A DNA stretch of 35,494 bases from a virus (lineage: Duplodnaviria; Heunggongvirae; Uroviricota; Caudoviricetes). A model generated the notes under the pieces. It made no database searches and was not told the origin of the DNA. It worked only from the letters and a program-made list of their open reading frames with translations. Below, piece after piece: positions 9,221 to 27,100 of this stretch (position 1 is the stretch's first letter; every line of letters begins with the position of its first letter). The position numbers were made by a program, and so were the translations under genes. The stretch covers positions 1 through 35,494 of IMG/VR virus record IMGVR_UViG_2531839180_000004. One strand, 5' to 3'.

Positions 9221-9396
9221 TTAGTCTTCTCAATTGTTTCTTCAGTCTGTATATCGCCTACAGGGTGATAACGATAAATCGTCGATATACTGATACCGTA
9301 AATTATTGCCAGTTGTTTTCTGTCATGACCGTTTTTAATAAGCCTTGCTATTTGAATGTTCACCCAAGGAATGCCTCCCTTAAGAAAGGGGGGCAA
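9202..9396 (-). pseudogene. remnant of a Gin/Hin/Cin/Pin-family DNA invertase (C-terminal HTH only)
   Basis: 64-aa ORF ...LIKNGHDRKQLAIIYGISISTIYRYHP resembles the C-terminal DNA-binding helix-turn-helix of serine invertases; the N-terminal catalytic domain is absent. Confidence 0.65.
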
Positions 9397-9409
9397 CCTT
9401 ACCTACAAA

Positions 9410-12007: not shown

Positions 12008-12612
12008 GCGTTTACTCTCAGATTATCAATTAAATGAATGGCCGGGGCAGGGAAATAATCCCCTTCGGCAATAATGGACTCCGGGGTGTAGGGATAAACC
12101 GTCAGGGCATCGCCGTGATAGCATCCCGTACCAACGAAAATCTTTCCGTTCACACTCAGGCTGATCGCCAGCCCCGTCAGATGGCGACTTACTGGTTTTG
12201 CATCCGCAATAAGGCGCTCAAGTTCCTGATACATTTCATCGGTGATGCCCTGATCAAGTACTCCGACAACAATGCGAAATGTTCCTGGCTCCTCGTTGAG
12301 TTGCCACCACTCCTTTACTTCAATCAGGTAGCCGAGAGGCTCCACGGCTCTTCGCAGTGCGCTGATGGTTCCCTTGTGTCGGTGTATCAGCCATGCATCA
12401 CGAATCACCTGTCGTTTTGTCTCTTCCGGCCAGTTGCGATCCCAGCGGTCAACGGAAAATGCCCAGGCGAGATAAGGCAGCAGATGCACCGGGCAGGTAT
12501 CCGGCGACCACAGCGTGTTGAGGTCTACCGGAATGTCTGTAATGCGTGTTCCGACGGCTTCGGCACAACGCATGAAACTGCTGGCTGATGGCGGTAACAG
12601 TGAATTACTCAT
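12004..12612 (-). CDS. I: baseplate assembly protein I
   Basis: From the internal Met MSNSLLPP; LWSPDTCPVHLLPYLAWAFSVDRWD aligns with P2 I. Confidence 0.9.
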   Translation of the reverse strand: MSNSLLPPSASSFMRCAEAVGTRITDIPVDLNTLWSPDTCPVHLLPYLAWAFSVDRWDRNWPEETKRQVIRDAWLIHRHKGTISALRRAVEPLGYLIEVKEWWQLNEEPGTFRIVVGVLDQGITDEMYQELERLIADAKPVSRHLTGLAISLSVNGKIFVGTGCYHGDALTVYPYTPESIIAEGDYFPAPAIHLIDNLRVNA

Positions 12613-13501
12613 TGCGCCCACCTTCGCTGATGGTAAATGACTCACAGCGCGCCGCCTGTATGTCGCTGATGGCCATATTCTGTGTGGGTTCGATTATCTC
12701 TACGCGTTGCACGCCGTGCACATGAAGTGCGGCAGCAATGGCGGACAACGCCACGTCCTGACCGATAAGCCCCTGTTCAGCCAGCCACTTCCTGAATGAC
12801 GATTCCGCCGCAGCCAGAATAGGTTCGGATTCCGGGCCGGGATAAAAGTACAGTTTTGCCTTCAGCCGCCATGTCACGATTCTGGCGCTCTGTACCGTCA
12901 GGCGGTCGGCCACCGGGCGGGTATCCTCTGCATTCAGAACGGCGCGAACGGTATTAAGCAACGCCTCCGTTGCCGTGCCGTCGCCTTCAGTGGACAGGAT
13001 GGAAACCGTCACATTTGCCGGAGACGGACTGATAGCCCGCGCATCACGCACCAGACCGCTGGCGCTGCGGGCAAAATACTCGTATGCACCTGACGGGCCA
13101 GCAACACTCAGGCCGTCATACGCCCGCTGCGCCCGCAGTCTCAGCGAGGTGTCGCTCTCCATCACCGCGTCGGTGGTATCCGTTGCCGGAGTGATAACCA
13201 GGCGCTTTGTGTTCATATTGCCCGCGAGGTTGTCCAGGTTTGTCCCTGAACCGTGGCTTAACATGCAGGCGCGTGCGCCCTCGTTAACCCGCTGGCGTAA
13301 CAGCATTTCACGAAACGACATGGTTTGAGCGATAACGTTAAGGGGTTCCGATTCCAGCTCCAGCGCGGCGGAAACGGCTTCACGCTGTTCGGCGGGATAG
13401 GACGCAATCATCATGGCCTTTGTGTCAGCCAGAATTGCCTCAAAGTCAGGCTCCGCGATGATGGCGGGGTCCGGTAACTGTGAAAGGTCAACGGCAGGCA
13501 T
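12605..13501 (-). CDS. J: baseplate assembly protein J
   Basis: 298 aa; ESEPL, RQRVNE, GLSVAG, RPVADRLTVQSA and LHVHGVQRVE blocks align with P2 J. Confidence 0.95.
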   Translation of the reverse strand: MPAVDLSQLPDPAIIAEPDFEAILADTKAMMIASYPAEQREAVSAALELESEPLNVIAQTMSFREMLLRQRVNEGARACMLSHGSGTNLDNLAGNMNTKRLVITPATDTTDAVMESDTSLRLRAQRAYDGLSVAGPSGAYEYFARSASGLVRDARAISPSPANVTVSILSTEGDGTATEALLNTVRAVLNAEDTRPVADRLTVQSARIVTWRLKAKLYFYPGPESEPILAAAESSFRKWLAEQGLIGQDVALSAIAAALHVHGVQRVEIIEPTQNMAISDIQAARCESFTISEGGRNE

Positions 13502-13504
13502 GAT

Positions 13505-13855
13505 TTACTCCCTCAGCGTGATGGTTAATTCAACATTCTGCATGGTCTGCATGACAGTGCCCGACAGCGTCACCCCGGCGCGGCCTCCTGCCTTCCAGAC
13601 AACGTCGATAGCGTCCAGGGCAATGCGGGGTTCCCATCGTGTCAGCGCAATCACGGCAGCACTCATGCATTGCAGACGCGTGGTGTTATTCATGGGTTCG
13701 TCAATCAAATCAGGCACAAGGCTGCCATATTCCCGTCGCATAACCCGGCTTGCCAGCGGGGTGGTCAGGATGTCCCTGACTGACTGTTTCAGGTGCTCCA
13801 TATCGTTCAGGTTTCCCGTTCTGTCCGGGTTCATTCCTGTGTAGCGGGTTGTCAC
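13505..13855 (-). CDS. W: baseplate assembly protein W (gp25-like)
   Basis: 116 aa; MTTRYTGMN...VRDILTTPLASRVMRREYGS aligns with P2 W. Confidence 0.9.
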   Translation of the reverse strand: MTTRYTGMNPDRTGNLNDMEHLKQSVRDILTTPLASRVMRREYGSLVPDLIDEPMNNTTRLQCMSAAVIALTRWEPRIALDAIDVVWKAGGRAGVTLSGTVMQTMQNVELTITLRE

Positions 13856-14433
13856 TGCGGGCCTCCTGTCGAATCGCTGCCACCTTTAACGCCACCGTGT
13901 TTATGCGTATGCACTGTGATGCCGTTTGAGGTGAAATTGCCGCCGCTGTGCGTGATATTGCCGCTCATCTTTCCCCCTTTTGTGACGTCAAGCGTCGCCG
14001 TTCTCAGAAGGTCTGTGCATTCCACGACGGGCGTATCCAGTGTCACGCTGACGGATGCCTGCAGGGTGGCTGTTTTCATGCCGCTGGCGCTCAGTGCGCC
14101 TGCGTCCGCGTCGTAGCGGAACACCGCGCCATCCGGCGCGCTGACCACGATTTCTTTCAGGCTTTTGCCGGGGGCCGGAATGGCATCACTCCACAGGCTG
14201 CCAATTATCATGGCGGTTTCCGGGTTGCCGCCAATGCAGGCAATTACCACCTGTTCGCCGGGTGATGGCGGCAGCCACACATTGAAGGCTCCCGCGCGCG
14301 TGGTGTTCCAGCGCAGCCAGCCTGTTTCCAGTTCGCCGCTGCGAACGCGCACGCACCAGGATTCCTCATCAACTTCAGAGATGATCCCGGTACGGATGAT
14401 GTTGCTCAGCAGCCGCATGAGTTCTGCGCTCAC
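13852..14433 (-). CDS. V: baseplate spike protein V
   Basis: 193 aa with a Gly-rich C-terminus, in the V position, P2 V-like. Confidence 0.9.
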   Translation of the reverse strand: MSAELMRLLSNIIRTGIISEVDEESWCVRVRSGELETGWLRWNTTRAGAFNVWLPPSPGEQVVIACIGGNPETAMIIGSLWSDAIPAPGKSLKEIVVSAPDGAVFRYDADAGALSASGMKTATLQASVSVTLDTPVVECTDLLRTATLDVTKGGKMSGNITHSGGNFTSNGITVHTHKHGGVKGGSDSTGGPQ

Positions 14434-15074
14434 CGTACAGCCTCCGCAATCCGGCCCAGCACCGTGTTATAAATCAGGCGCTCATCTGCCTGGCTGATAC
14501 CCAGCAGCTCACGTACCGGGTAATCGGTGAAAATGCCCGGCGCAACCTGATCGCGCTCACCGAACTGATGAACGCGTGCAATACGTGCGGCCACGCCGCT
14601 GTAACCCACCGTCACACCGGAAGCATCTGCACGGGCTTTCAGGTAGCGGGCGGTGCGCAGTTTTACGAACATGGGGACGCGCTTTGTGCTGTCCTGGTTG
14701 ATGCGCCGGGTGCGTATTTCCAGAAAACGGTCGATGTCATCCCGGTAAAACGTGCGGATATTGTTTTTATCCTCATCCCACCCGGTAATGGTTCGCCCGT
14801 ATTTCCCCGTGTCGTGATGCCAGTTTTTCAGCGTGCGTGCTTCGTTATTCCAGATAAAGCGAATGCGTTCCTGTATCCGGGTTACGCGGCGTCTGCGTGG
14901 TGTCCACGCGGTCCCGTCCGGCGCTTTCTGTGACCGGATACGCGCCTGCTGGGCGCGGCGTAAATCCTGTGCCAGCTTTCTGGCGATGTTATTGATGGCC
15001 TGCTGATTCAGGCTGTCGCGGATGGCCTCAAAGGTTTCATCCACGCGGGTGAATGCCTTATCCATCGCTTTCAC
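14430..15074 (-). CDS. S: tail completion / virion morphogenesis protein S-like
   Basis: 214 aa in the S position between R and V; longer than P2 S. Confidence 0.7.
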   Translation of the reverse strand: MKAMDKAFTRVDETFEAIRDSLNQQAINNIARKLAQDLRRAQQARIRSQKAPDGTAWTPRRRRVTRIQERIRFIWNNEARTLKNWHHDTGKYGRTITGWDEDKNNIRTFYRDDIDRFLEIRTRRINQDSTKRVPMFVKLRTARYLKARADASGVTVGYSGVAARIARVHQFGERDQVAPGIFTDYPVRELLGISQADERLIYNTVLGRIAEAVR

Positions 15075-15525
15075 CCCACGTCACATCCTGGAATACATGC
15101 GACCAGTCGCCTTCGGAAGATGGCAGGCGGGGTTTTGGCTCAGGCAGGTGTTCTGCCTGCGGTGTGCCCTGACTGCTGCGCGTGATGCGAACGCGTTCCC
15201 GCAGGGGGAGCGTAAACAGGAGATCGGCGCTGTCATCGTCATTGATAACGGCGGAGAATTTGATGTCCTGATTACGCTCCGGATTGAGCAACAACTGTGG
15301 CTGATTTTCGGATAACCACGCCAGTAGCGGCAGCGTGAGGTCGTCCAGCTCCCCGGCGTAATCCATGACAAACATCACCATCTGATAGCGGTAAACAAAC
15401 GAGGGCGTTTCTCCGGTCGTTTCAATGTTGCCGCTCTCCACGAAAATGGTGAATTTTTCCGGGTTGGCCTGACACCATCGGCATGAACGGGTCATGGCTT
15501 CACGCAGGGAATCAGTTTTCAGCAT
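15058..15525 (-). CDS. R: tail completion protein R
   Basis: MLKTDSLREAMT...LPLLAWLSENQP aligns with P2 R. Confidence 0.85.
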   Translation of the reverse strand: MLKTDSLREAMTRSCRWCQANPEKFTIFVESGNIETTGETPSFVYRYQMVMFVMDYAGELDDLTLPLLAWLSENQPQLLLNPERNQDIKFSAVINDDDSADLLFTLPLRERVRITRSSQGTPQAEHLPEPKPRLPSSEGDWSHVFQDVTWGESDG

Positions 15526-15802
15526 GGTTGTTATCCTCGTTGTTCAGTCGTTGCAGCCTGCGCTGTTCCAGTAATTCAATGGCCCGTTTATCCGCGTTAC
15601 AGGTTTCCAGTGCATCCAGAAGGCGGTCGCCCCATATACCGAGATTTCCCCATGTGGGAGTATCAGGGAAGGGGGGAGGCGTTACCGGTATGGTCAGCGT
15701 CTGCGGTATAAGCCGGACTGACGGCGCTGGCAGTGGCGCGTTCTGCGTGCCTGCGCAGCCTGTCAGTAAAACGAGCGTCAGGCAAAGCGTGGGCGCATTC
15801 AT
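15512..15802 (-). CDS. lysC: outer-membrane spanin lipoprotein (LysC/Rz1-like)
   Basis: Signal peptide with lipobox LLTGC, Pro-rich, starts inside lysB and extends into R as in P2. Start Met (MNAPTL) chosen by signal-peptide logic. Confidence 0.65.
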   Translation of the reverse strand: MNAPTLCLTLVLLTGCAGTQNAPLPAPSVRLIPQTLTIPVTPPPFPDTPTWGNLGIWGDRLLDALETCNADKRAIELLEQRRLQRLNNEDNNHAEN

Positions 15803-16070
15803 CTTTTGCAATATCGTTGCGTAGCTGTTCACGTCTTACCTCTCCGTCCTGATTGCGTTGCTGATTTTCCACGCGGAGTTGCGCCAGCACCTGCTGCATA
15901 TCCTGTACCCCGGCGCTGATGATATTCAGGGTGTCGGCGGTACTTTTCAGGGTGCTGGCCTGCGCTTCGTTTCTGGCGTTCTCCCGGCCCAGCGACCACG
16001 ACAGACGCATGGATGTTCCCCATCCGGCAATCAGAAGGAAAGCGACGCCAAGCGTGGGCCAGAGCTTCAT
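15663..16070 (-). CDS. lysB: inner-membrane spanin (LysB/Rz-like)
   Basis: Internal Met MKLWPTLGVAFLLIAGW gives an N-terminal TM helix then a coiled-coil region. GGAG Shine-Dalgarno upstream; start overlaps the endolysin stop. Confidence 0.7.
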   Translation of the reverse strand: MKLWPTLGVAFLLIAGWGTSMRLSWSLGRENARNEAQASTLKSTADTLNIISAGVQDMQQVLAQLRVENQQRNQDGEVRREQLRNDIAKDECAHALPDARFTDRLRRHAERATASAVSPAYTADADHTGNASPLP

Positions 16071-16459
16071 GCCGGATAGGCTCCGTGTGGTAACTGAAAA
16101 TGCGGTCCGTCTTTCAGAGTCTTCCAGTCGCCTCCCCATTCCACCGGAATATTCAGTTCCCGGCTGGCCTGTCTGAATGCTGCTGCGATTTTTTCGTACA
16201 GCGGCCATTCCCATGACACCTGGCTGCCGATATAAGCCACAACATCCACGGCATGTCCCGTAAGGTGGCGGCTGTTCATGGTCTGGCTCTTACCCGTGGC
16301 CACCAGTTGCTTCTGGCGGTAACGGCTGCGCAACCCTTCGGTGATACCAAAATCCACTTCCGAGATTTCCAGTGCCCGTCGGGTCACTTTCACCAGATCA
16401 GGATTTACGCCCTGCAAATTCTTTTCGCTCCGGCTGCTGAATTTAAATGTGTTGCTCAT
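16067..16459 (-). CDS. endolysin, peptidase M15-type (L-alanyl-D-glutamate peptidase-like)
   Basis: 130 aa with SRHLTGHAVD...HFQ zinc-peptidase signature; it replaces the P2 K-type lysozyme. Confidence 0.8.
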   Translation of the reverse strand: MSNTFKFSSRSEKNLQGVNPDLVKVTRRALEISEVDFGITEGLRSRYRQKQLVATGKSQTMNSRHLTGHAVDVVAYIGSQVSWEWPLYEKIAAAFRQASRELNIPVEWGGDWKTLKDGPHFQLPHGAYPA

Positions 16460-16776
16460 TCGTCCTTCTCCTTCACCCTGCGATTAAAGGCCGCAATAAC
16501 CTTGTCGCGTGCTTTCTCTGCCCCCATAAAACCGATTGATGCGCCGATAAACGTCACGGCATCTTCAGGAAACCCGAAGAAGCGCAACGACCCGGCCACG
16601 GCCATGGCAAGAACGCCGCACGCCAGCGATCCCGTTACGGTCTGAACCAGTGTTCGTCCGTCATAAAGACTCATCAGCGCGGAAATGCTGACCGCCGCGC
16701 CTACTGCATACACCGTTGGCAGGTGGTCAAAGAGCCACGCAATAACCTGCTCTGTGATCCCTGTTTGAATGGTGCT
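16456..16776 (-). CDS. holin (GTG start)
   Basis: Hydrophobic 106-aa product with a charged C-terminus (RRVKEKDE). GTG start preceded by a GGGGGGAG Shine-Dalgarno inside the 3' end of X. The upstream part of the 180-aa track ORF overlaps X and is rejected. Confidence 0.6.
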   Translation of the reverse strand, partial: STIQTGITEQVIAWLFDHLPTVYAVGAAVSISALMSLYDGRTLVQTVTGSLACGVLAMAVAGSLRFFGFPEDAVTFIGASIGFMGAEKARDKVIAAFNRRVKEKDE

Positions 16777-16781
16777 CACTG

Positions 16782-16982
16782 CTACTCCCCCCACAACTGA
16801 ATCATTTCTCGTTTCTTCTTCTCCGGCTCCGGCATCTCCACTTCCTGCCCGGCGTCCAGAAATACCTGCTGACAGAGTCCGGGGTTGGCATCCAGCACCT
16901 TTTCGGTGACGCCCTGCGTCGTGCCGTAGTACCGGAAACAGAGCGAATCCACGGTGTCGCCTTCCAGTGCCTTCACTTTCAT
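16782..16982 (-). CDS. X: tail protein X
   Basis: MKVKALEGDTVDSLCFRYYGTTQGVTEKVLDANPGL aligns with P2 X. Confidence 0.8.
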   Translation of the reverse strand: MKVKALEGDTVDSLCFRYYGTTQGVTEKVLDANPGLCQQVFLDAGQEVEMPEPEKKKREMIQLWGE

Positions 16983-17485
16983 CAGCACAATTCCGCAAAG
17001 ATTCGCGGGCGGCACAGAATGTCAGAGATGGCCCAGCTCACATCGCGCCACAAATCCGATGTCTGTATATCCAGTGCGTCCGCCCGGCGGTCGCCCTTGT
17101 CCGTTGTGTCCGCATCGCGGTAACGCTCCAGAATCAGGGCGCGCGTGGCGGTATAAACAGCATTGCGCCAGTGCCAGAGATTGACGCTTTCTCCGTTAAT
17201 TACGGGTGCCGGAACATCGGCCAGCGTCTGATGGCCAGCTGCCTGCTGTTCCTGCTGCCATGCTTCCAGCTCGCGGGTAACGTGTGCCACAGCCCCGGTG
17301 GCAGTATGCAGCAGGCGGGAGGTGGTCACGCGGCCCGGCAGTCGTACCGCCAGACGCAGCTCGCGCAGCACAATATCCGGCCAGAATGCACCCGCTGAAA
17401 TGCGGGTATCGCCATCATCGGTATCGGTGATGTCGTCCTCTGCGGGTCCGGGTTCAGTTCTGGCAACCATACTCATGGGGTTCAC
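16982..17485 (-). CDS. L: head completion/stabilisation protein L
   Basis: 167-aa ORF in the L position, P2 L-like. The track start is a GTG; the true start may be an internal ATG. Confidence 0.8.
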   Translation of the reverse strand: MNPMSMVARTEPGPAEDDITDTDDGDTRISAGAFWPDIVLRELRLAVRLPGRVTTSRLLHTATGAVAHVTRELEAWQQEQQAAGHQTLADVPAPVINGESVNLWHWRNAVYTATRALILERYRDADTTDKGDRRADALDIQTSDLWRDVSWAISDILCRPRIFAELC

Positions 17486-17578
17486 TCCTGAAAAAAATCG
17501 GGCGGTGGGTGCGCGGTGTAAACGGTCACGGAGTCAAACCGGAACACCGCGCACGCCGCCCGCTGACGGGGTCAGTCG

Positions 17579-18379
17579 TTAACCGCGCTTCGCCTTCTGC
17601 GTCGCGGTGGTTTTTCGTGTTGCAGGCTTCCGCGTTGTCTTTTTACTTTTGCTGCTTTCGTCCTGCGTCTGCTGTGCGCTGGCGTCTTCTGGTGCGGCTG
17701 CGGAATCGGCTTTTTTCAGAGCGCGGGAAAGGGTTGCAATCTCGCGTTTCACACCTGCGTTCGGGTTCAGGTGCATCGCTTCGCGCAGCAGCTTCAGTGA
17801 TGAGGCCATGCTGTCCGCATCGCTCAGGCTACGGCGGGCAAAGGCGCACGCTTTGCATAATTTGGCTCGCACTTCGTCCGGCATATCCTGGTTGGCGACA
17901 ATTTCCCAAAGTGTGTCCAGTGGTTCGATAAAGGCGGACAAATCCGCGTCGGCATCCGTCCCGGCCTGCGTCAGTACCGGGTTGCAGATTTCTTCGGTCA
18001 GTACCGTGGCAGCAGTACGGCCAAAGTTATCCGGCATGATGAGGTTGTGACGGACCACATACGCACCAATACGCAGCGCAAGCGGAAGATCGCCGCAGTC
18101 AATTGCCCACACCATCAGCGTGGCAATCACTTCATCCTGCTGCCCGCCGTCAGCCTCCAGCGTTCCCTCAATCCAGCCGGAAAAGTCCGGCAACAACTCT
18201 TTTTTGATGGCGGCTTTCGCGCTTCTGGCCTGTACGCCCTTAAGTCGGGCCTGTGCCAGACGCAGACGATACAGCACCTCTTCATGCGCGGTACGCGCGG
18301 CGTGGTCCACGCCTTCATTCGCCCGGCCTGCGCGCTGTGCCATCACGTTCTGCCAGTGTTGCTGTGCAGGAGTAATCAT
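17579..18379 (-). CDS. M: terminase endonuclease (small) subunit M
   Basis: 266 aa with a basic Lys/Thr-rich C-terminal tail, in the M position between N and L. Confidence 0.85.
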   Translation of the reverse strand: MITPAQQHWQNVMAQRAGRANEGVDHAARTAHEEVLYRLRLAQARLKGVQARSAKAAIKKELLPDFSGWIEGTLEADGGQQDEVIATLMVWAIDCGDLPLALRIGAYVVRHNLIMPDNFGRTAATVLTEEICNPVLTQAGTDADADLSAFIEPLDTLWEIVANQDMPDEVRAKLCKACAFARRSLSDADSMASSLKLLREAMHLNPNAGVKREIATLSRALKKADSAAAPEDASAQQTQDESSKSKKTTRKPATRKTTATQKAKRG

Positions 18380-18424
18380 TTTTTCTCTCCGTTACAGGCG
18401 GGCATGATGCCCGCCGTGAGTTGA

Positions 18425-19476
18425 TTAGCTGTCGGCGAACTTCAGGCCAGTGACCATCGCGCACTTGCCATAGTCTTCAACGACATAAGCGTCATTGATG
18501 GACTGGTAGGTGGCGATGCGGTTGTATTCCGGCTCGTCTTTCATCAGGCGACGCATTGTTCCTTTCTGCCAGTAAATCGACAGGTTGTTGAACGAGGTGA
18601 TCAGCATCGTTGAATCCGGGAAGAACGGCGCAAGGAATACATCCAGTCCGCCAATGGCGCGCGATGACAGGATGAGCTGTCCGGCAAGTAATTCCGCATT
18701 GGGATTCTGGCCGCTGATGCTGTTCAGCACGGGCAGACGCAGCGAGTTAAACAGGTTGCGCCCCATAATCACCACGAGGTCGTCAGCTTCCTTGTGCCAT
18801 TCATCCAGCAGGGATGAGCGCGCGTCCTGTACCAGTGCATCAGCGTTCGCATACTTACCCGCGTGCGCCACGGTGTTGTCCATGTTGCGGGAGGTCAGCG
18901 TCACGTCATTCATTACGCGCTCGCTGGCGTCGGTTCTGATGTGCTCCAGCCATCCCACGTTAACGTCCTGAAGCAGCTTGTTGGTGCTGAAGTTGGACTC
19001 ATCTGCGTGAGACGTGCCGTTGAAACCGATCATGATGCGGTCAAGCGCCACCTGCCGGGCAATCTGTGTGCTGACGCGTGACTGAAAATCAGGGTGTGCC
19101 GCCCAGGCATCAAGCTGCGGATACGAAATAAACGTGTCGTAGTTCACCTGTTCGCACTGATATTTGCGGTTTTTCAGATCAACCACGTTATTCGGGTTAC
19201 GGCGTTTTGTGCCGTCATAACTGGTATTCGTGCGCGCAATCGGCCCGGTGGTGTCCAGGAGGATTTTTTCGCCTTTCTGGTCGGTCACACCGAACACGTT
19301 AATTTTTTTGTAAATTCAGTGCTCTCCTTTACTGCGTTTTCAAAACGCTGCTGCACCGAGGGTTCCACGGTAAATCGCGATACCAGTGCAGATACCGGGA
19401 TGTTGTTAAGCGACGCCTGCTGCGCCATATAGCAACCCAGCTTGTTGCGGGTAATATCTGACATCACCAGATTCAT
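18425..19476 (-). pseudogene. N: major capsid protein N, interrupted by a frameshift in a homopolymer run
   Basis: N-terminal 63 aa (19285..19476, ...FTVEPSVQQRFENAVKESTEF) and the remaining 290 aa (18425..19297, ...VTDQKGEKI) both align with P2 N but lie in different frames. The junction is an A7 run on the coding strand. Confidence 0.85.
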
Positions 19477-19499
19477 AAAAAATTTGCTCCTTTGTCTTA

Positions 19500-20336
19500 T
19501 CAGAAGTCAGCCAGTTGATCGGAGGCTGCGCCCGTTGCGGTGAACCGGTTTTGCGGATCGCCGTCCTGCGTGCGCAGTTTTTCCTTCAGTGCTGTCAGCT
19601 CTGTGGTCAGTGACGTGATTTTCTGGCGGTCCTGCTGATGGCGGGTTTCCAGCACATTAAAACGGTCGATAATGTCGGCCTGTGACGTTGCGACGCCTTC
19701 CACCGCTTCCTGAATACGGGAGAAACTGGCGTCATCCGCTTTGCGGCCACGACCAATAATCCCCATTACGCGGTTAAACCACTGGGTGCCTTCTTCCTGG
19801 CTTTGTTCTGCCATTTCGATGATTTCAGACTCGATGGCTTTGGAAATGAGCGGTGCTTCACCCTGGACACTGTTGAACGTCATCACCGCCTGACGTTGCT
19901 GTGCCGTGAATTTCAGGCGCTCAGTGCCCAGGCTTGCCGGGGTGTCGGTCATCGCCAGCCCGACCAGATAGGCGCGCCCGTTAACGGAGAACTGCGGGTG
20001 CAGTTCGATACTGGAATAGATTTTCTTGCCGTCCGCGACAAGCTGCTTCATGCGCTCGGTCGGTTCGATTTCTGCATACAGCGCAGTACGTCCGGCCAGC
20101 GGACCTTCCGTAATGTCTTCCGTACTCAGTGCGGTGACATCGCCCATTGCGGAAAATTCGCTTGACGGGCATGGCGAGAGATAGTGCTCAACGTTCACGC
20201 GGGCAGCGTAAACATCCGGGTTGAAGTTCTCGGCGGCTTCACGCAGATGTACCGGGCTGATTTCGCGGCCATCAACAGTTGATCCGGAGACAGCCACGCG
20301 AAACTTTTTGCGGGATGTCTTTTTTTCATTAGCCAT
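19500..20336 (-). CDS. O: capsid scaffolding protein O
   Basis: From the internal Met MANEKK; FRVAVSGSTVDGREISPVHLREAAENFNP aligns with P2 O. Confidence 0.9.
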   Translation of the reverse strand: MANEKKTSRKKFRVAVSGSTVDGREISPVHLREAAENFNPDVYAARVNVEHYLSPCPSSEFSAMGDVTALSTEDITEGPLAGRTALYAEIEPTERMKQLVADGKKIYSSIELHPQFSVNGRAYLVGLAMTDTPASLGTERLKFTAQQRQAVMTFNSVQGEAPLISKAIESEIIEMAEQSQEEGTQWFNRVMGIIGRGRKADDASFSRIQEAVEGVATSQADIIDRFNVLETRHQQDRQKITSLTTELTALKEKLRTQDGDPQNRFTATGAASDQLADF

Positions 20337-20404
20337 AGTTTTTGCCCCTCTGACTGGTTCTTCAGTCATGATGGCAAAGCGTAACAGGCTGATACAAAGG
20401 GCTT

Positions 20405-20429
20405 TTGTTGTAAGAAAACGGCCAGAACA
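20405..20429. promoter_or_regulatory. candidate late-promoter activator site (TTGTTGT-N12-AGAACA) in the divergent O/P region
   Basis: Same motif as at 3497-3520, located in the divergent O/P intergenic region. Confidence 0.3.
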
Positions 20430-20490
20430 GGGGGTTAAGGAGAACAGTTTCGCGCGCGGGTAATCTTCCTGTAATTACTCAGGGGGAGCA

Positions 20491-22242
20491 ATGATTCAGG
20501 ACGCTTTTGTGCGCCAGCGTGCGCGGCAACTTTACTGGCAGGGTTATCCGCCCGCAGAAATATCACGTCTGATGGGAATAAACCCGAACACGATTTATGC
20601 GTGGAAAAAACGCGACCAGTGGGATGAAACGCCACCCGTGCAGCGTGTCACGCAGTCCATCGATGCGCGCCTCATCCAGCTCACTGAAAAACAGAATAAA
20701 ACAGGTGGTGACTTCAAGGAAATAGACCTGCTGACCCGGCAGCTTAAAAAACTGCATGATGGCCAGCCGGATGCGACGGCCACAGGAAAGAAAGGCCGGG
20801 CGAAAAAACTCAAAAATCATTTCACGCCGGAACAGATTGCCGCACTGCGGGAAAAAATCATCAGCAGGCTGGAGTGGCATCAGCGGGGCTGGTTTGACTC
20901 CCTGACCCTTTGCAGGGAAGCCGGGATACGTAACAGGATGATCCTGAAATCCCGACAGATTGGGGCGACCTGGTATTTTGCACAGGAAGCTCTGCTGATG
21001 GCGCTGCGTGACGATGTGGCGCAACCTTACCAGCGTAACCAGATTTTTTTGTCTGCGTCGCGTCGTCAGGCGTTCCAGTTTAAAAGCATTATTCAGAAGG
21101 CCGCGGCTGAAGTTGATGTGGAGCTGAAAGGGGGCGATAAAATCATCCTCTCCAACGGCGCAGAGCTGCATTTTCTCGGCACTTCTGCTGCGTCGGCACA
21201 GTCCTATACGGGCAATTTTTATTTTGATGAATTTTTCTGGGTCAGTCGCTTTGCTGAACTGCGCAAGGTAGCTGGCGCTATGGCAACCCTCAGCGGACTG
21301 CGGCGCACCTACTTCTCCACGCCATCCACCGAAACGCACGAGGCATACGCCTACTGGAACGGCGACCGCTGGAACGAGAAAAAGGCCTCGCATAAACGCC
21401 AGCGTTTTTCTGTGGACTGGAAAACGCTGCATAACGGGCTTATCTGCCCTGACCGGACGTGGCGGCAAATTGTCACGCTGGAAGATGTGGTTAATCACGG
21501 CTGGAAACACACCGATATTGACGAAATCCGTGATGAAAACACCGAAGACGAGTTCCTCAATCTCTATATGTGTGAGTTTGTTCGCGAAGGGGAATCGGCA
21601 TTTAACCTGAATATCCTGATTGGCTGCGGTGTTGACGGATACGACGACTGGAAAGACTGGAAACCTTTTGCTCCCCGCCCGATGGGGAATCGTCCGGTAT
21701 GGATTGGGTATGACGCAAACGGCAGCAGTGGCAACGGCGACAGCGGCGCTGTGTCCGTGGTGGTTCCTCCGGCTGTTCCTGGTGGCCGTTTTCGAACGGT
21801 GGAGACGCGACGCGTTCAGGGGCTGGAGTTTGAAGAACAGGCCAGAGTCATTGAAGAGTTCACGTGTCGCTACAACGTGGAACACATCGGCATTGATGTG
21901 ACGGGCGGGAACGGGGAGGCTGTTTATCAGATAGTGAAGCGGTTTTTCCCTGCTGCTATTCCGTACACCTTCACGCTGTCATCCAAACGGTCGCTGGTAC
22001 TGAAAATGCTGCAAATAATGCGTGCCGGACGCTGGGAATACGATCGCGCCGAACGCGAGCTGGTCGCGGCCTTTAACGCCGTGCGTAAGGTGAAAACACC
22101 GGGCGGCTTTATCACTTACGAAACGGACCGCGCGAGGGGGATCAGCCACGGCGACCTTGCGTGGGCAACCATGCTTGCTGTCATTAACGAACCAATTGGC
22201 GGCGAAGGAGAAAACGAGCGTTTCACGGTTATGGAGTTCTGA
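20491..22242 (+). CDS. P: terminase ATPase (large) subunit P
   Basis: 583 aa with a P2 P-like N-terminus and nuclease region. Confidence 0.95.
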   Translation: MIQDAFVRQRARQLYWQGYPPAEISRLMGINPNTIYAWKKRDQWDETPPVQRVTQSIDARLIQLTEKQNKTGGDFKEIDLLTRQLKKLHDGQPDATATGKKGRAKKLKNHFTPEQIAALREKIISRLEWHQRGWFDSLTLCREAGIRNRMILKSRQIGATWYFAQEALLMALRDDVAQPYQRNQIFLSASRRQAFQFKSIIQKAAAEVDVELKGGDKIILSNGAELHFLGTSAASAQSYTGNFYFDEFFWVSRFAELRKVAGAMATLSGLRRTYFSTPSTETHEAYAYWNGDRWNEKKASHKRQRFSVDWKTLHNGLICPDRTWRQIVTLEDVVNHGWKHTDIDEIRDENTEDEFLNLYMCEFVREGESAFNLNILIGCGVDGYDDWKDWKPFAPRPMGNRPVWIGYDANGSSGNGDSGAVSVVVPPAVPGGRFRTVETRRVQGLEFEEQARVIEEFTCRYNVEHIGIDVTGGNGEAVYQIVKRFFPAAIPYTFTLSSKRSLVLKMLQIMRAGRWEYDRAERELVAAFNAVRKVKTPGGFITYETDRARGISHGDLAWATMLAVINEPIGGEGENERFTVMEF

Positions 22243-23288
22243 TGAGCAGAAAAAATAAAAAAGTGCGCATGAGTTCACGCATTGATCTCGCTGATGCGCT
22301 CAGGAAAGAATCATCGCTCAGTGCATTCACATTTGATGGTCCTTATCGCCTGACCGGGCATGACCTGCTGGACAATATGTACTGTGCTGATAACGGGCGG
22401 TGGTATGAAACCCCGGTAGACTGGTACGGTCTGGCAAGAGCTGCCCGGCAAACGTCCTGGCATCAGTCTGCGCTTTACTTTAAGCGCAATGTATTGCTCG
22501 GCTGCTATATTCCGCACCCGCTGCTTTCCCGGCAGGATTTCTCGGCGCTGGCGCTGGACTGGTTTGTGTTCGGTAACGCATTCCTTGAGCTTCGAAGCAA
22601 TATGCTCGGCGAACCGCTTAAATTACGGCACGCCCTGGCGAAATACATGCGACGCGGAAGCGATCTTGAATCATGGTGGTATGTGCAGGATGGCAAGGAT
22701 GCGTTTCAGTTTCGCCCTGGTAAAGTGTGCCACCTGATGAATCCTGACATTAACCAGGAAATCTACGGCATGCCGGAATATCTTGGCGCATTACTCTCGG
22801 CCAGCCTGTCTCATTCGGCGGACATGTTCAGAAAACTGTATTACGACAACGGATCCCACGCCGGGTGCATCATCTACATCGGTGCAGCGCAGGTAAACCG
22901 CGAAAGCATGGACTCCCTGAAAGAAACGCTACAGGGTGCACGTGGTGGTGGTGCGTTTAAAAACGTGCTCATTCATGCCCCCAACGGTGGCAAAGAGGGG
23001 GTGCAAATTTTGCCGTTCCAGCAGATCACCGCAAAGGATGAGTTCATGAATGTTAAGGCGGCATCCCGTGATGATGTGCTGGCTGCGCACCGCGTTCCGC
23101 CGCAACTGATGGGGGCGATGCCGGGCGAAAAAAGTGCGTTTGGTGATGTGGAGAAGGCCGCGCGGGTTTACGCAATTAACGAGCTGATGCCCGTCATGGA
23201 GGCCATGAAGCACATCAATGACTGGCTTGGCGAAGAGGTGATCCGCTTTAACCCTTACGCACTGTTAGATACCCAGCCCACATCCTGA
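22242..23288 (+). CDS. Q: portal (capsid vertex) protein Q
   Basis: 348 aa, P2 Q-like; start overlaps the P stop (TGATG). Confidence 0.95.
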   Translation: MSRKNKKVRMSSRIDLADALRKESSLSAFTFDGPYRLTGHDLLDNMYCADNGRWYETPVDWYGLARAARQTSWHQSALYFKRNVLLGCYIPHPLLSRQDFSALALDWFVFGNAFLELRSNMLGEPLKLRHALAKYMRRGSDLESWWYVQDGKDAFQFRPGKVCHLMNPDINQEIYGMPEYLGALLSASLSHSADMFRKLYYDNGSHAGCIIYIGAAQVNRESMDSLKETLQGARGGGAFKNVLIHAPNGGKEGVQILPFQQITAKDEFMNVKAASRDDVLAAHRVPPQLMGAMPGEKSAFGDVEKAARVYAINELMPVMEAMKHINDWLGEEVIRFNPYALLDTQPTS

Positions 23289-23312
23289 CGCGCTTCGCTT
23301 GTCTGCTGCTTC

Positions 23313-23341
23313 GCCGGGGCATAAAAAATTTATGCCCCGAC
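23313..23341 (+). terminator. hairpin downstream of Q (GGGGCATAAA-AAA-TTTATGCCCC)
   Basis: Perfect 10-bp inverted repeat about 25 bp after the Q stop, but no clear U-tract. Confidence 0.35.
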
Positions 23342-23710
23342 TCTCCAGCTCCTGTATCAATCAGATAATTTCACGACGCTTTTCTGCTTATTGCCATCAT
23401 CGGCGGTCAGACTCTTACGCAATCCCACCGCGTTGACTGCATGTTATTCGCCGCCTCAGTGCGATTTTGACGGCCTTACCTTTCACCCCATCAAATCAGA
23501 ATCCCTCACGTATTTTTCACGCTCAGCGTGAGAAATACAGCCATTCTGTTGTGTCTCTGCGACATCGTTCAGGGAATGCTATTTACCCCCTGAAACGCGG
23601 GCTGTTCCCCCGTCACCTGCGCGCAGAAAAAGCGCGTTTTTTTGTGCACGCACGGATCCCTGACGGATCCAGCCGCCACGCGGGCCAGAAGGGCAAAAAT
23701 TCGTTCAAAA

Positions 23711-23741
23711 AAATTGTGCAAATTTGTGCACTATTGTGCGC
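23711..23741. promoter_or_regulatory. three direct TTGTGC(A/G) repeats at 10-11 bp spacing upstream of the ATPase gene
   Basis: ATTGTGCA, TTTGTGCA and ATTGTGCG roughly one helical turn apart, about 90 bp upstream of the ATG at 23826. Confidence 0.35.
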
Positions 23742-23825
23742 TAAATCGAATCCCTGTATTGCTTACCAGCTCATTACATGTAAACTCAACAGGTAGCAAT
23801 ATTTACTTCCAAAAGGTGGAACAAA

Positions 23826-25025
23826 ATGGCTTTTACAAAAATCAGAATCGATAATCTGTTTTGCTTTGAAAATAGCATCCTTGACTTAAGCTTCTCCAGA
23901 CCCCCGATCAACAGCTCACTGGAAGGTGAGTACATTGATGGATTTGAAAAGTTCTACTTCAAAAAGGTTTGCATCGTTTCTGGTGCTAATGCATCTGGTA
24001 AAACATCTCTTGGTCGCGTGATGCTTTCTGTGTTGCGTTTTCTCAGTAGTGGTGTTTTCAATCCAGAACCGTTAAAAATTACTGACAAAAGAAAACCTGC
24101 ATATATAGAGGTTGACTTTTTCCAGAGTCATTTAAAATGTTTGTTTAGGGCAGGTGTCTGGCTTAGGGCTATGGATGAGTCTGTTGTTGTAGAAAAAATT
24201 GCAATGGCATCTGTTGATTTAAGAAGCTCGGAATCATGCGCAAAGACGACCAAAAGATTGGATGCTGTGTGGGATGCGCAAAAGTTTGAATTAAATGGTC
24301 AAAATAGATTTTTTTCAACCGAAAACGCTAACTCAAAAGAATTTTCCCAATATTTAGAGGATTTGGACTTTGTTCTTGGTTGGCATTTCATTCTATCTGA
24401 AAACCAAGAGAACACGGATAAAATATCACGAATTAAGAAGAATGTGCTTAATAGCATATTAAAAACCTTTGACAATACTGTTAAATCTGTCTCAGGACTC
24501 ACTCTTAAAGATGATGAGGGAAAGGAGGATTTGCAGGGTTATTCAGTAGTCTTCAATAATGGAGATAGAGTTATTATTGATATGGAAGGTGATATAACAA
24601 ATAAAGATAGACTGTCTCGTGGTACTTATGAGGCAGTAAAAATATCCCATCTCCTGTCAGGAGTGCTTGAAGATAAAATAGAAGAGCGAGAGTTCAATTT
24701 CCCTTGCAGTGGGGTGTACTTTTTGGATGAGAAAATGGCCTTCACTCATACTGAATTAGAAAAAATGATGGTCACGCTGATTATATCTAAGCTTTGCAGA
24801 TATGGTCAATTTATATACACCACACATAATTATGATATCTTGAGCTTAGATCTGCCTACGCATTCATATACTTTTACTAAAAAAGTAGATGGTGTAACCA
24901 CTTTTGTTGAAGCTACCACACATCATAAAAAGAATGATCGCAATCTTTTAAATAAAGTAAAAAATGACTGTTTTGCAACAATACCTGACGTTTCATTAAT
25001 CGAAGAGATGCTATTTGAGGATTGA
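23826..25025 (+). CDS. ABC-type/AAA_21-like ATPase (cargo, candidate defence ATPase)
   Basis: Walker A GANASGKTS, Walker B VYFLDE, H-loop-like TTHN. AT-rich. AAGGTGG Shine-Dalgarno before the ATG. Confidence 0.85.
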   Translation: MAFTKIRIDNLFCFENSILDLSFSRPPINSSLEGEYIDGFEKFYFKKVCIVSGANASGKTSLGRVMLSVLRFLSSGVFNPEPLKITDKRKPAYIEVDFFQSHLKCLFRAGVWLRAMDESVVVEKIAMASVDLRSSESCAKTTKRLDAVWDAQKFELNGQNRFFSTENANSKEFSQYLEDLDFVLGWHFILSENQENTDKISRIKKNVLNSILKTFDNTVKSVSGLTLKDDEGKEDLQGYSVVFNNGDRVIIDMEGDITNKDRLSRGTYEAVKISHLLSGVLEDKIEEREFNFPCSGVYFLDEKMAFTHTELEKMMVTLIISKLCRYGQFIYTTHNYDILSLDLPTHSYTFTKKVDGVTTFVEATTHHKKNDRNLLNKVKNDCFATIPDVSLIEEMLFED

Positions 25026-25027
25026 TT

Positions 25028-25564
25028 ATGGCAGTTAAGAAATTTGCTATTATTCTTGTTGAGGGAGATACGGAAAAAGCATTGTTTCAGGATTTCAAAA
25101 CATTGCTAGGCTATCCTATTAAGAAAATAGTAATTGCTAATTTATGGAATGTTAATATAAATAAATACATGCCAGCATTAACCGAAAATAGCGAAATCAT
25201 AGTGGTTTTTGATACGGATAGGATTGAGAATCTTGATAGATTTAAGAATAATCTCAATCTATTAAAGGCGAAAAAACACACAATCCACCTATTTCAACAA
25301 ACAAGCAATTTTGAGGATGAGCTTGCCAATGCTTGTGGTGTAAGTAATAGAAAGTTGTATTCTTGTTTTTGCCCAAAGATCATTTCTGCAGATAACTTCA
25401 AGAATGAATTCATTGCGCTGCGCAACAGGATGATGAAATTAGATGGACTTGGACTAAATAAAACGTTGCTTTGGAGTAGAGGGATTATCCCCCAATTGAG
25501 AGATTATAATTTTCATGTTTCCTCTCATGATGATTATTTTTATAAAAATAATAGTCCTCATTAA
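25028..25564 (+). CDS. Toprim-like small protein (RloB/DUF4276-like) coupled to the ATPase
   Basis: N-terminal FAIILVEGDTE and VVFDTD acidic motifs match the Toprim/OLD-type pattern. ATG 2 bp after the ATPase stop with a GAGGA Shine-Dalgarno. AT-rich. Confidence 0.7.
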   Translation: MAVKKFAIILVEGDTEKALFQDFKTLLGYPIKKIVIANLWNVNINKYMPALTENSEIIVVFDTDRIENLDRFKNNLNLLKAKKHTIHLFQQTSNFEDELANACGVSNRKLYSCFCPKIISADNFKNEFIALRNRMMKLDGLGLNKTLLWSRGIIPQLRDYNFHVSSHDDYFYKNNSPH

Positions 25565-25675
25565 GATAAACATATTTTAAGACACAAGACCGCCAGCTAG
25601 GCGGCCTTATATCTTTGACGCTCGACTCCTTATTTGTTGATTGTTTTCAGAACTGGAAACCTCCCGTGCAAAGTT

Positions 25676-25987
25676 CTAATCGGGAAATAACGCCCGGATA
25701 TTTCCGGCCATCTGACTGGTTATCTGTGCGGTGGGGGCTGTCTGTAACATGTGGCGTTCTGCCCTGGTTTGTGTCACTGATAACGCCTCATCGTCAGCCC
25801 ATGCAGCCAGTCGTTAAGCCTCTGCCGGATTCATTTTCAGAAGTGCCAGCCCGGCCAGAAAAGCCACGCGTTGGCCGCTTTTGCGGGCTTCTGGTGTAAG
25901 GCTGTCCAGCCAGGCGCATGCTTCGCCTTCGTTCTTGACGGCGGCGGGCTTCAGATAGAAACTTATCCGTCTGGTTGGTGTCGTCAT
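25676..25987 (-). pseudogene. ParR-like partition adaptor interrupted by an in-frame TAA
   Basis: From Met MTTPTRRISFYLKP the N-terminus resembles R1 ParR, then an in-frame TAA. The continuation in the same frame (...ITSQMAGNIRALFPD) resembles the ParR C-terminal region. Confidence 0.5.
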
Positions 25988-25991
25988 TGGT

Positions 25992-26951
25992 TTACTCCTT
26001 GTCCATTGCGTACAAACCATTGACCAGAGCAAACTGTGGCACCCCGTCCGCGATGAAAGTCGCATTAACTCCGCAGGCTTCGCGGATAGCGGGTGCCACA
26101 ATCTCCGCCCCTCCACCGACAACCATCACCCGCCCGTAACCCGAAAAACCCGCCAGCGCGCGGATCACTCGTTGTTTCAGTGTTTCTTCCTTTTCACGAA
26201 TAACCGCCATCAGGCTGTCGTAATGCGCGTCATTGTGGATGTGCTGGCGCAGCCAGGCTTCATCATGGCGATGTTCGATAATGGTATTGGCGATGTGGTG
26301 ACTGGTGCGCATACCGTTAGTGGCCATCACCGACAGTACGGCATCGGCCATCAGAGAAACGCCTACGTGTGGATCGCAAAACACCTGGCTGATACCTGCC
26401 AGTTACCCCTGAACCTTTGCCACATCCAGCGTGGTTCCGCCCAAATCCACAATCAGCAGGGATTCAAACGGACTCATGTCAGCCAGTGCCTTAAAGCCAG
26501 CCGGAATGGATTCAGGCATAACCCGCACGTTACGGATAGTGAATGCTTCGCCGTTCTGGTACTCCACCGGGCGCATAACGTTCGCTTTTTTGCGGTTGAT
26601 GTTGGCCATGTCCGGCTGTGCGTTTGTGTCGAAATACTCGCTCAGTGGCAGGGTGACAACCACATCCACCTCCTGTGGCGTGATGCCTGATTTGACCAGC
26701 GCGTGATGAATGGCAATGACATTCACATCGCTGTATTGGTATTGCGTGTCGGTCGTCTGGACAAAGCGATCGCTGACCGGATCAAAACCATAGCGCACGC
26801 CATCAAGCATGTAGTTCGCGGGCTGCGTGCCACCGAACGGCGCAGACCATTCCGACTTGAAGCTGTTCGGGCTGATGGCGTTGCGGCGTTCGCCGTTCTC
26901 AGTCCATGCCAGCTTGATGTTGGTGGAGCCGTCGTCGATACAAATTTTCAT
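25992..26951 (-). pseudogene. ParM/StbA-like actin-type segregation ATPase interrupted by one in-frame stop codon
   Basis: MKICIDDGSTNIKLAW...DLGGTTLD...VMVVGGGAE is colinear with plasmid R1 ParM. ORFs 26403..26951 and 25992..26384 are in the same frame, separated by a single TAA and six sense codons. Confidence 0.8.
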
Positions 26952-26975
26952 GTCGATTTTCCTTATGTTGATTAA

Positions 26976-27100
26976 TTAATCGTTTACGGGATTCTGAAAT
27001 CCCGCTTTTGCCTGTTTTGTGTGCGCTTCATATATCGCGGCGCGTTTTTTGCTCATTTACGGGATTCGTGAGTCCCGTTTCTGTCTGTTTTTTGTTTCCA
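26976..27100. repeat. two copies of a ~45-bp direct repeat, each with an internal GGGATTC...(A/G)TCCC hairpin, upstream of parM and overlapping the 3' end of A
   Basis: TTTACGGGATTCTGAAATCCCGCTTTTGCCTGTTTTGTGT and TTTACGGGATTCGTGAGTCCCGTTTCTGTCTGTTTTTTGT, about 75 bp apart. Confidence 0.5.

What the first reader, a model, noticed from the sequence alone, without database searches (positions are those of the whole stretch)
19280..19312. Major capsid gene N is split by a one-base frameshift in an A7 homopolymer
Seen in sequence: the first 63 codons and the remaining 290 codons of the P2 N homologue are in different frames. The two reading frames cross within ACAAAAAAATTAACGTG; an eighth A would restore a continuous T-K-K-I-N-V reading that aligns with P2 N. 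Inference: either a homopolymer sequencing error or a genuine inactivating mutation that makes the prophage defective for capsid production.
Basis: seen in the sequence. Interest (0 to 1): 0.5.

Follow-up and report, generated by a model that had tools for sequence, protein, structure and literature searches.

The report
Capsid-gene frameshift, probably a sequencing error
The major capsid gene of this E. coli prophage is split by one missing A in a run of eight, but the missing base is unique to this 2011 draft assembly and is most likely a homopolymer miscall, so the finding is ordinary.

Summary
The P2-family capsid gene N lies on the minus strand at 18425..19476 and is split into a 63-codon and a 290-codon ORF. 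The two frames cross at an A7 run (T7 on the plus strand, 19303..19309). Adding one A gives a 350-aa protein that aligns end to end with P2 gpN.

The window is a complete P88-like prophage of E. coli TW10509, from the draft assembly GCA_000190995.1. Every close relative examined carries A8:
- 208 of 208 RefSeq complete genomes with identical flanks;
- 16 phage genomes;
- 35 of 36 IMG/VR contigs and 14 of 14 metagenome contigs;
- 23 of 24 contigs with an identical gpO (the exception is this assembly).

Independently sequenced copies of the same prophage lineage show no substitution private to the window. The window's only two private differences are one-base contractions of A/T homopolymers: this one, and T6 to T5 at 25537..25541.

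That pattern points to homopolymer under-calling (about 0.7). A very recent real deletion is the main rival (about 0.25).

The A8 tract is a recurrent trouble spot. A7 and A9 forms occur on 157 and 121 public contigs, on at least 8 haplotypes. The run is an in-frame A_AAA_AAA slippery heptamer, but nothing supports programmed recoding. Interest is low.

The parts
18425..19476 (-). Major capsid gene N (P2 family, PF05125) of a P88-like prophage. It is 1052 nt here and 1053 nt in all relatives.
   Evidence: It lies in the conserved order Q-P / O-N-M-L.
19303..19309 (-). A7 homopolymer on the coding strand. Relatives have A8. This is the site of the one-base shortfall. In the upstream frame it reads acA AAA AAA, which is an in-frame A_AAA_AAA heptamer.
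19285..19476 (-). Upstream ORF of 63 codons, ending ..TKKLTCSV-TGA. It covers Pfam profile positions 4-49.
   Evidence: This exact product is on record on 157 contigs.
18425..19297 (-). Downstream ORF of 290 codons (GTG start, no Shine-Dalgarno sequence in front). It covers Pfam profile positions 50-324.
   Evidence: This exact product is on 75 contigs.
19285..19288 (-). GTGA overlap. The TGA stop of the 63-codon ORF overlaps an in-frame GTG of the N frame. Some gene callers start a 287-aa product here. Re-initiation at this point is possible in principle. The product would lack the N-terminal 63 residues.
   Evidence: Read from the sequence. The 287-aa calls are seen in L009, L010 and L012. 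Function is inferred only.
19324..19329 (-). AAGGAG (codons K-E), 14 nt upstream of the A run. It resembles a Shine-Dalgarno sequence. It is listed only because it bears on the frameshifting rival.
   Evidence: Read from the sequence. No test of function was possible.
25537..25541 (+). Second private homopolymer contraction of this assembly: T5 here, T6 in all lineage copies. It changes the end of the AbiLii-like TOPRIM gene (25028..25564) from ..DDYFL* (172 aa) to ..DDYFYKNNSPH* (178 aa).
   Evidence: The 178-aa form is on 1 contig (this scaffold) and the 172-aa form is on 443 contigs.

Best explanation
The split is a one-base under-call of an A8 homopolymer in the draft assembly of E. coli TW10509 (GCA_000190995.1, scaffold GL872204.1). 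It is probably not a property of the prophage. The real gene is most likely the intact 350-codon N gene found in every other sequenced copy of this prophage, and the prophage should be treated as probably capsid-competent.

Shown:
- the identity of the assembly;
- the A8 state of all close relatives;
- the absence of any substitution private to the window;
- a second private homopolymer contraction.

Inferred:
- that the two length differences are technical. This rests partly on my recollection, not checked here, that Broad E. coli drafts of 2010-2011 were made by 454 pyrosequencing, which under-calls long homopolymers.
For: 1. The window is 100% identical to GL872204.1 of GCA_000190995.1. A protein of that scaffold is named 'Escherichia coli TW10509'.

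2. Copies of the same prophage lineage share its two nonsense mutations in parM and parR, its cargo genes and its insertion site. These copies show no substitution private to the window.
- Window 1..12147 is 100.000% identical to Logan ERR273783, GCA_025270795.1 and ERR1937248.
- Window 17030..35494 versus ERR273783 has 0 mismatches and 2 gaps, both homopolymer contractions in the window: T8 to T7 at 19303-19309 and T6 to T5 at 25537-25541.
- Window 1..22006 versus GCA_049986805.1 has 1 SNP, which belongs to that relative, plus the A7/A8 gap.

3. The other lineage members differ from the consensus mainly by substitutions: L034 has 3, L035 has 1, L018 has 1, L032 has 2 and L031 has 2. There is one shared homopolymer indel (L029/L030) and one 6-bp repeat change (L013). 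That is 9 SNPs to 1 homopolymer indel, against 0 to 2 for the window. My hand-calculated Fisher exact p is about 0.045.

4. Among the 24 longest contigs carrying the identical gpO protein, only this scaffold has A7. The other 23 have A8.

5. No RefSeq complete E. coli genome with the identical 71-nt context has A7 (0 of 208). All 16 full-length phage matches span 1053 nt. IMG/VR has 35 A8 and 1 A7. Metagenome contigs have 14 A8 and no other length.

6. The 178-aa product created by the second contraction is on record on this scaffold only, although the independent assembly of the same strain (AEKA01, GCA_000208545.2) is in the collection.

7. Every other phage gene tested is full length. The only other defects are the parM and parR nonsense codons.

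8. A7 calls elsewhere are enriched in visibly error-ridden assemblies. In L003, 12 of 18 genes are broken. In L008, 7 of 20 are flagged, one of them only by tail-fibre divergence. In L009, gpQ is also shifted.
Against: - No reads could be inspected.
- The sequencing platform of the assembly is recalled, not verified.
- Real one-base deletions in A8 runs are the commonest spontaneous frameshifts, so a genuine recent mutation gives the same sequence.
- A7 also occurs in at least five otherwise clean assemblies on different haplotypes (L004, L005, L007, L011, L012). Real A7 alleles may therefore exist.
- Two differences is a small sample.
- The contig of the independent TW10509 assembly that carries N could not be retrieved.
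Confidence: 0.7

Rival explanations
1. This is a genuine, very recent one-base deletion by replication slippage in the A8 tract, in the TW10509 isolate or its laboratory stock. The prophage makes only a 63-residue N-terminal peptide. At best it also makes an N-terminally truncated fragment by re-initiation at the GTGA overlap. It cannot build heads, although its lysis, tail and replication genes are intact.
For: - The sequence as deposited carries A7.
- A8 runs are mutational hot spots. AAAAAAA is under-represented in E. coli genes, which Sharma et al. 2014 attribute partly to a high indel rate (PMC4066793).
- The same A7 allele, and an A9 allele, appear in many public assemblies on at least 8 haplotypes. 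Five of those assemblies are otherwise intact, and one carries an IS66 element in gpV.
- The lineage already carries two nonsense mutations, in parM and parR.
Against: - The allele is not inherited by any relative. Explicit lineage copies (L013, L018, L033, L034, L035) and 23 of 24 contigs with identical gpO have A8.
- The window has no private substitution but two private homopolymer contractions. Natural divergence in this lineage runs about 9 SNPs to 1 such indel.
- The parM and parR nonsense codons are lineage-wide and coexist with intact N. They are not evidence of decay specific to this copy.
Confidence: 0.25
2. The A7 allele is real and is decoded. Either a -1 ribosomal shift on the in-frame A_AAA_AAA heptamer, or insertion of an extra A by RNA polymerase slippage, restores T-K-K-I-N-V. 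This would supply some full-length capsid protein (compensatory frameshifting).
For: - The A run is in frame as acA AAA AAA, and a -1 shift gives exactly the A8 protein.
- AAGGAG lies 14 nt upstream.
- A_AAA_AAA gave more than 0.1% frameshifting without stimulators in E. coli and is common in IS elements (PMC4066793).
- Compensatory frameshifting at homopolymer indels is known for the G7 run of HSV thymidine kinase (PMC5009743).
Against: - No relative conserves the split. All have A8, so nothing is programmed.
- The predicted downstream structure starts 1 nt after the run and is unremarkable: z = -1.94, matched by 9 of 200 shuffles.
- Unstimulated efficiency, of the order of 0.1% in the reported assays, is far below what a major capsid protein needs (my inference).
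- The AAGGAG is simply codons K-E. The relatives aligned over N show no difference there, apart from L010, whose variable sites were not mapped.
- This explanation presupposes that the A7 is real.
Confidence: 0.03
3. The A8 tract is a selected contingency (phase-variation) switch that toggles capsid production on and off in lysogen populations.
For: Both A7 and A9 forms recur in public data, on 157 and 121 contigs.
Against: - The combined frequency is low: 0 of 208, 1 of 36 and 0 of 14 in curated or independent sets.
- A7 calls are enriched in error-ridden assemblies.
- Other N haplotypes replace the tract with K-R codons (P0002, P0008 and P0033), so the tract is not conserved.
- I can see no benefit to the host from losing only the capsid while the lysis genes remain.
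Confidence: 0.02

Closest known systems
Major capsid protein gpN of phage P2 (PDB 7JW1) and of P88-like phages (Xuanwuvirus: P88, P884B11, PhiR44_2)
   Same: - Same Pfam family, PF05125.
- The repaired protein aligns over its whole length with P2 gpN (E = 5e-83).
- 98.7-99.6% nucleotide identity to P88-like phage N genes.
- Same gene order Q-P / O-N-M-L.
   Different: The window copy is 1052 nt, not 1053 nt, and is therefore split 63 + 290 codons. All 16 full-length phage matches and all close prophage relatives are unsplit.
Homopolymer length miscalls in draft assemblies (pyrosequencing or nanopore type), which produce false frameshifts and false pseudogenes
   Same: - A single-base contraction in a long A/T run.
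- Private to one assembly.
- Accompanied by a second private homopolymer contraction and no substitution.
- Other A7 calls occur in assemblies full of broken genes.
   Different: The platform and the reads of this assembly were not checked here. Only two such differences occur in 35.5 kb.
Programmed -1 frameshifting on A_AAA_AAG or A_AAA_AAA (dnaX, IS elements). The window's own genuine example is gpE/E+E' at T_TTT_TTG, 5660..5666.
   Same: An in-frame slippery heptamer with a Shine-Dalgarno-like sequence upstream. The -1 product is the biologically sensible protein.
   Different: Real programmed sites are conserved as two overlapping frames in all relatives, as E/E' is here. The N split is absent from all relatives. 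There is no convincing stimulatory structure.
Compensatory low-level frameshifting at homopolymer indels (HSV thymidine kinase G7 run; Atkins et al. 2016, PMC5009743)
   Same: An indel in a homopolymer of a viral gene that slippage could partly correct.
   Different: No evidence of expression, selection or inheritance here.

Membership tests
P2-family major capsid protein gene (PF05125) | Sequence match to the family profile above the curated cut-off | tested here: met
   Scores against a cut-off of 27 bits: repaired protein 400 bits, 63-aa piece 34.9 bits, 290-aa piece 343.8 bits.
P2-family major capsid protein gene (PF05125) | Position between the scaffold gene O and the small terminase gene M, opposite Q-P | tested here: met
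   tblastn of the STEC388 prophage proteins and the annotations of L001 and L002.
P2-family major capsid protein gene (PF05125) | One uninterrupted reading frame of about 350 codons | tested here: not met
   Split 63 + 290 codons at the A7 run.
Sequencing or assembly artefact (homopolymer under-call) | The variant is private to one assembly, while near-identical independent copies carry the longer run | tested here: met
   L013, L018, L033, L034 and L035, and 23 of 24 contigs with identical gpO, have A8.
Sequencing or assembly artefact (homopolymer under-call) | Other private differences of the same assembly are also homopolymer length changes rather than substitutions | tested here: met
   0 private SNPs. 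The second private difference is T6 to T5 at 25537..25541. The 178-aa product is on 1 contig, against 443 contigs for the 172-aa form.
Sequencing or assembly artefact (homopolymer under-call) | Reads, or an independent sequence of the same strain, show the longer run | not testable with these tools
   No reads are available. The independent assembly AEKA01 was reached only for window 33667..35494, where it is identical to the window.
Genuine pseudogene in a decaying prophage | The lesion is inherited by related genomes, or accompanied by other lesions specific to this copy | tested here: not met
   No relative shares it. The parM and parR nonsense codons are lineage-wide and coexist with intact N. 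All other genes are intact.
Programmed -1 ribosomal frameshift site | Slippery X_XXY_YYZ heptamer in the upstream frame | tested here: met
   acA AAA AAA at 19309..19303.
Programmed -1 ribosomal frameshift site | The two-frame arrangement is conserved in homologues | tested here: not met
   Homologues have A8 and one frame.
Programmed -1 ribosomal frameshift site | Stimulatory structure 5-9 nt downstream, or a Shine-Dalgarno-like sequence 10-14 nt upstream | tested here: inconclusive
   The downstream fold scores -26.2 kcal/mol, z = -1.94, and starts 1 nt after the run. AAGGAG lies 14 nt upstream, but it is coding sequence (K-E), and nearly all relatives aligned over N show no difference there. 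The spacing rule is recalled, not checked.

The most novel reading that the evidence does not exclude
The A8 tract in the capsid gene of this phage group is a genuine hypermutable site. Real A7 and A9 prophage alleles would then circulate, on at least 8 haplotypes and 157 + 121 public contigs. A7 alleles would remain weakly capsid-competent, because the run is an in-frame A_AAA_AAA heptamer with AAGGAG 14 nt upstream. Ribosomal -1 slippage or RNA polymerase slippage would then restore some full-length N.
Probability: 0.05. Interest if true: 0.4.

Novelty: not a real feature. Interest (0 to 1): 0.08.

Why it matters
The main consequence is for annotation. On the face of the sequence, this prophage would be scored as defective for head assembly. 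The comparative evidence says it is probably an intact copy of a recently mobile P88-like phage, because near-identical copies (0-3 SNPs) sit in hosts whose flanking DNA differs by 1.2%.

It is also a caution. Single homopolymer frameshifts in older draft assemblies should not be read as prophage decay. The A8 tract of this capsid gene repeatedly yields A7 and A9 calls in public data.

If the deletion were real, it would be an ordinary first step of prophage inactivation.

Tried and rejected
- **General assembly quality.** I looked for many broken genes in the window. Only N is frame-broken. Alignment to STEC388 shows 3 indels in 31 kb, and the A7 at 17491 is lineage-typical. Gross error is rejected. 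A low error rate is not.
- **parM and parR nonsense codons as decay of this copy.** Rejected. They are shared by the lineage (ParM182 is on 32 contigs and 67 blocks; ParR57 is on 60 contigs), and the relatives that carry them have intact N.
- **The 6-bp GGACTC difference in gpA as a third private change.** Rejected. The 940-aa form is the lineage norm (29 blocks). The 942-aa form is private to L013.
- **A single A7 lineage.** Rejected. A7 loci carry at least 8 N haplotypes that differ by up to 35 sites.
- **Programmed frameshifting.** No conservation and no convincing structure.
- **gpD looking truncated in RefSeq annotation (266 aa).** This is only a choice of start codon. Other gene callers give 369 aa.
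- **Fetching the N-bearing contig of the independent TW10509 assembly (AEKA01).** Look-ups of the integrase, the 167-aa gpL call, gpA, ParM and gpO all failed to show it.
- **Exact A8 and A9 pattern scans of the public collections.** I replaced them with a variable-gap pattern.
- **Scans of the GTDB representative genomes.** Nothing found.
- **Literature search for ERR273783.** Nothing found.

Full report
**What is in the sequence**

The feature is on the minus strand. The ORF listing gives a 63-aa ORF at 19285..19476 and a 290-aa ORF at 18425..19297. The coding strand reads GAA TTT ACA AAA AAA TTA ACG TGT TCG GTG TGA. The A7 run is at 19309..19303, which is T7 at 19303..19309 on the plus strand.

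The downstream frame reads YKKINVFGVTDQKGEK.. and is closed upstream by TGA at 19318..19316. The two frames can therefore only be joined between 19315 and 19288, and the A run is the only repeat in that stretch.

Pfam PF05125 (Phage_cap_P2) matches the short ORF at profile positions 4-49 and the long ORF at positions 50-324. With one A added, the 350-aa protein aligns in one stretch with P2 gpN (PDB 7jw1_A, residues 8-349 against 4-344, E = 5e-83).

**What the window is**

The window runs from a hok gene (4..141) to the stop codon of an integrase (35494). It is a complete P88-like (Xuanwuvirus, P2-family) prophage inserted between ihfA and btuC.

It is 100% identical to scaffold GL872204.1 of GCA_000190995.1. 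A protein of that scaffold carries the source name Escherichia coli TW10509. TW10509 is a cryptic clade I strain from human faeces, and a second, independent assembly exists under AEKA00000000 (PMC7716201).

I ran tblastn of 47 proteins of the closest RefSeq prophage (STEC388) against the window.
- 45 of them match, and every one is covered essentially end to end. Only N is split between two frames.
- Two genes carry in-frame TAA codons: parM (26405..26403) and parR (25816..25814).

**How relatives read the site**

- All 1056 near-full-length matches in RefSeq complete E. coli genomes that were listed span 1053 nt against the 1052-nt query. The best differ from the window by the gap alone.
- A 71-nt query centred on the run found 208 records. 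None was identical to the window, and every listed one spans 72 nt.
- All 16 full-length phage matches, including P88, P884B11 and PhiR44_2, span 1053 nt.
- A variable-gap pattern found 35 A8 and 1 A7 in IMG/VR. The A7 contig is only 98.3% identical to the window, so it is a different phage.
- The same pattern found 14 A8 and no other length in metagenome contigs.

**The window's own lineage**

The parM and parR nonsense codons mark a lineage. The 182-aa ParM product is on record in 67 blocks.

Copies of this lineage from independent samples were compared with the window base by base.
- Window 1..12147 is 100.000% identical to Logan ERR273783, GCA_025270795.1 and ERR1937248.
- Window 17030..35494 against ERR273783 has no mismatch and two one-base gaps: T8 against T7 at the N site, and T6 against T5 at 25537..25541.
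- Window 1..22006 against GCA_049986805.1 has one SNP, which belongs to that relative, plus the N gap.
- The 6-bp repeat difference in gpA seen against L013 is private to L013.

The window therefore has no private substitution and exactly two private differences. Both are contractions of A/T homopolymers.

The second contraction changes the end of an AbiLii-like TOPRIM protein. The resulting 178-aa form is on record on this scaffold only, while the 172-aa form is on 443 contigs.

Among the 24 longest contigs encoding the identical gpO protein, only this scaffold has A7.

The other lineage members differ from the consensus by 1-3 substitutions each and almost never by homopolymer length.

The host flank in the independent TW10509 assembly (AEKA01000114.1) is identical to that of ERR273783 over 6.2 kb. 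It differs by 2 SNPs in 11.8 kb from GCA_001912565.1. The closest comparators are therefore the same host clone.

**Interpretation**

A pattern of no substitutions and two homopolymer contractions, private to one 2011 draft, is what homopolymer under-calling produces. It is not what divergence in this lineage looks like, which runs about nine SNPs per homopolymer indel.

I recall, but could not verify here, that Broad E. coli drafts of that period were 454 assemblies. I put the artefact at about 0.7.

A genuine recent deletion in this isolate gives the same sequence and cannot be excluded without reads. I put it at about 0.25. Either way the finding is ordinary.

**Recurrence elsewhere**

- The exact 63-aa product (A7) is on 157 contigs.
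- A 59-aa product ending ..TKKN, which is what an A9 run predicts, is on 121 contigs.

Ten A7 loci (one of them the window's own scaffold) carry at least 8 N haplotypes that differ by up to 35 sites, so the event is recurrent.

Of the nine A7 loci that are not the window:
- three come from assemblies with many broken genes (L003, L008, L009);
- one has an IS66 element in gpV (L010);
- five are otherwise intact.

The tract is thus a recurrent trouble spot. Part of this is clearly technical and part may be real. AAAAAAA is under-represented in E. coli genes, which Sharma et al. attribute to transcriptional slippage or a high indel rate (PMC4066793).

**Recoding**

The run is in frame as A_AAA_AAA, and a -1 shift yields exactly the A8 protein. 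AAGGAG lies 14 nt upstream. Sharma et al. report more than 0.1% frameshifting for this heptamer without stimulators. Compensatory frameshifting at homopolymer indels is known (PMC5009743).

Against this:
- No homologue conserves the split.
- The downstream fold is unremarkable: z = -1.94, matched by 9 of 200 shuffles.
- Such an efficiency could not supply a major capsid protein.

The window's genuine programmed frameshift is gpE/E+E' at T_TTT_TTG, 5660..5666. It is conserved as two frames in the relatives.

**Limits**

- No reads were available.
- The N-bearing contig of AEKA01 could not be reached.
- The 'similar places not shown' counts of the look-up tool cannot be read as A8 counts. The tool also merged this scaffold with A8 places when large flanks were used. 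I therefore count only loci that I aligned myself.

Noticed in passing
window 26403..26405 (parM) and 25814..25816 (parR), minus strand: Two in-frame TAA nonsense codons lie in the adjacent plasmid-type partition genes: parM CAA to TAA (Q183*) and parR TAC to TAA (Y58*). They are inherited across a prophage lineage (ParM182 on 32 contigs and 67 blocks; ParR57 on 60 contigs). Two knock-outs in one 1.3-kb module suggests selection against the module, or a compensating pair.
   Followed up: partly
window 25537..25541 (gene 25028..25564, plus strand): T5 here against T6 in all lineage copies. This changes the C-terminus of an AbiLii-like TOPRIM protein from 172 aa to 178 aa. The 178-aa form is on record on this scaffold only, against 443 contigs for the 172-aa form.
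   Followed up: yes
window 23826..25564 and 711..2147: The cargo next to the portal gene is an AbiL-like two-gene defence pair: AbiLi ATPase (E = 1e-27) and a weak AbiLii/TOPRIM match. A 478-aa cargo gene between ogr and gpD has no PADLOC match.
   Followed up: partly
L003-L012, L036; proteins P0001 and P0003: The same capsid gene appears with A7 (63-aa product, 157 contigs) and with A9 (59-aa product ..TKKN, 121 contigs) in many public assemblies, on at least 8 haplotypes. Some of these assemblies are error-ridden and five are otherwise clean. Whether any of these alleles is real and heritable was not resolved.
   Followed up: partly
window 5660..5666 (plus strand): T_TTT_TTG heptamer in gpE (5349..5711), with the E' frame continuing to 5875. 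This is the conserved programmed -1 frameshift of P2-type tail chaperones. It is present as two overlapping frames in the relatives.
   Followed up: partly
L034/L035 versus L033/L091 (host flank beyond window 35494): Near-identical copies of this prophage (0-3 SNPs in 18 kb) sit next to host DNA that differs by about 1.2%. The lineage has therefore moved between hosts recently, which implies that A8 copies are or were infectious despite the parM and parR nonsense codons.
   Followed up: partly
window 17491..17497: The intergenic A7 between gpM and gpL is A6 in STEC388 but A7 in all lineage copies. This is natural variation, not a private change of this assembly.
   Followed up: yes
L010 15317..18047: One A7-bearing relative (GCA_974498245.1) also has an IS66-family element inserted in the baseplate gene V, so it is a truly decayed prophage.
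   Followed up: no
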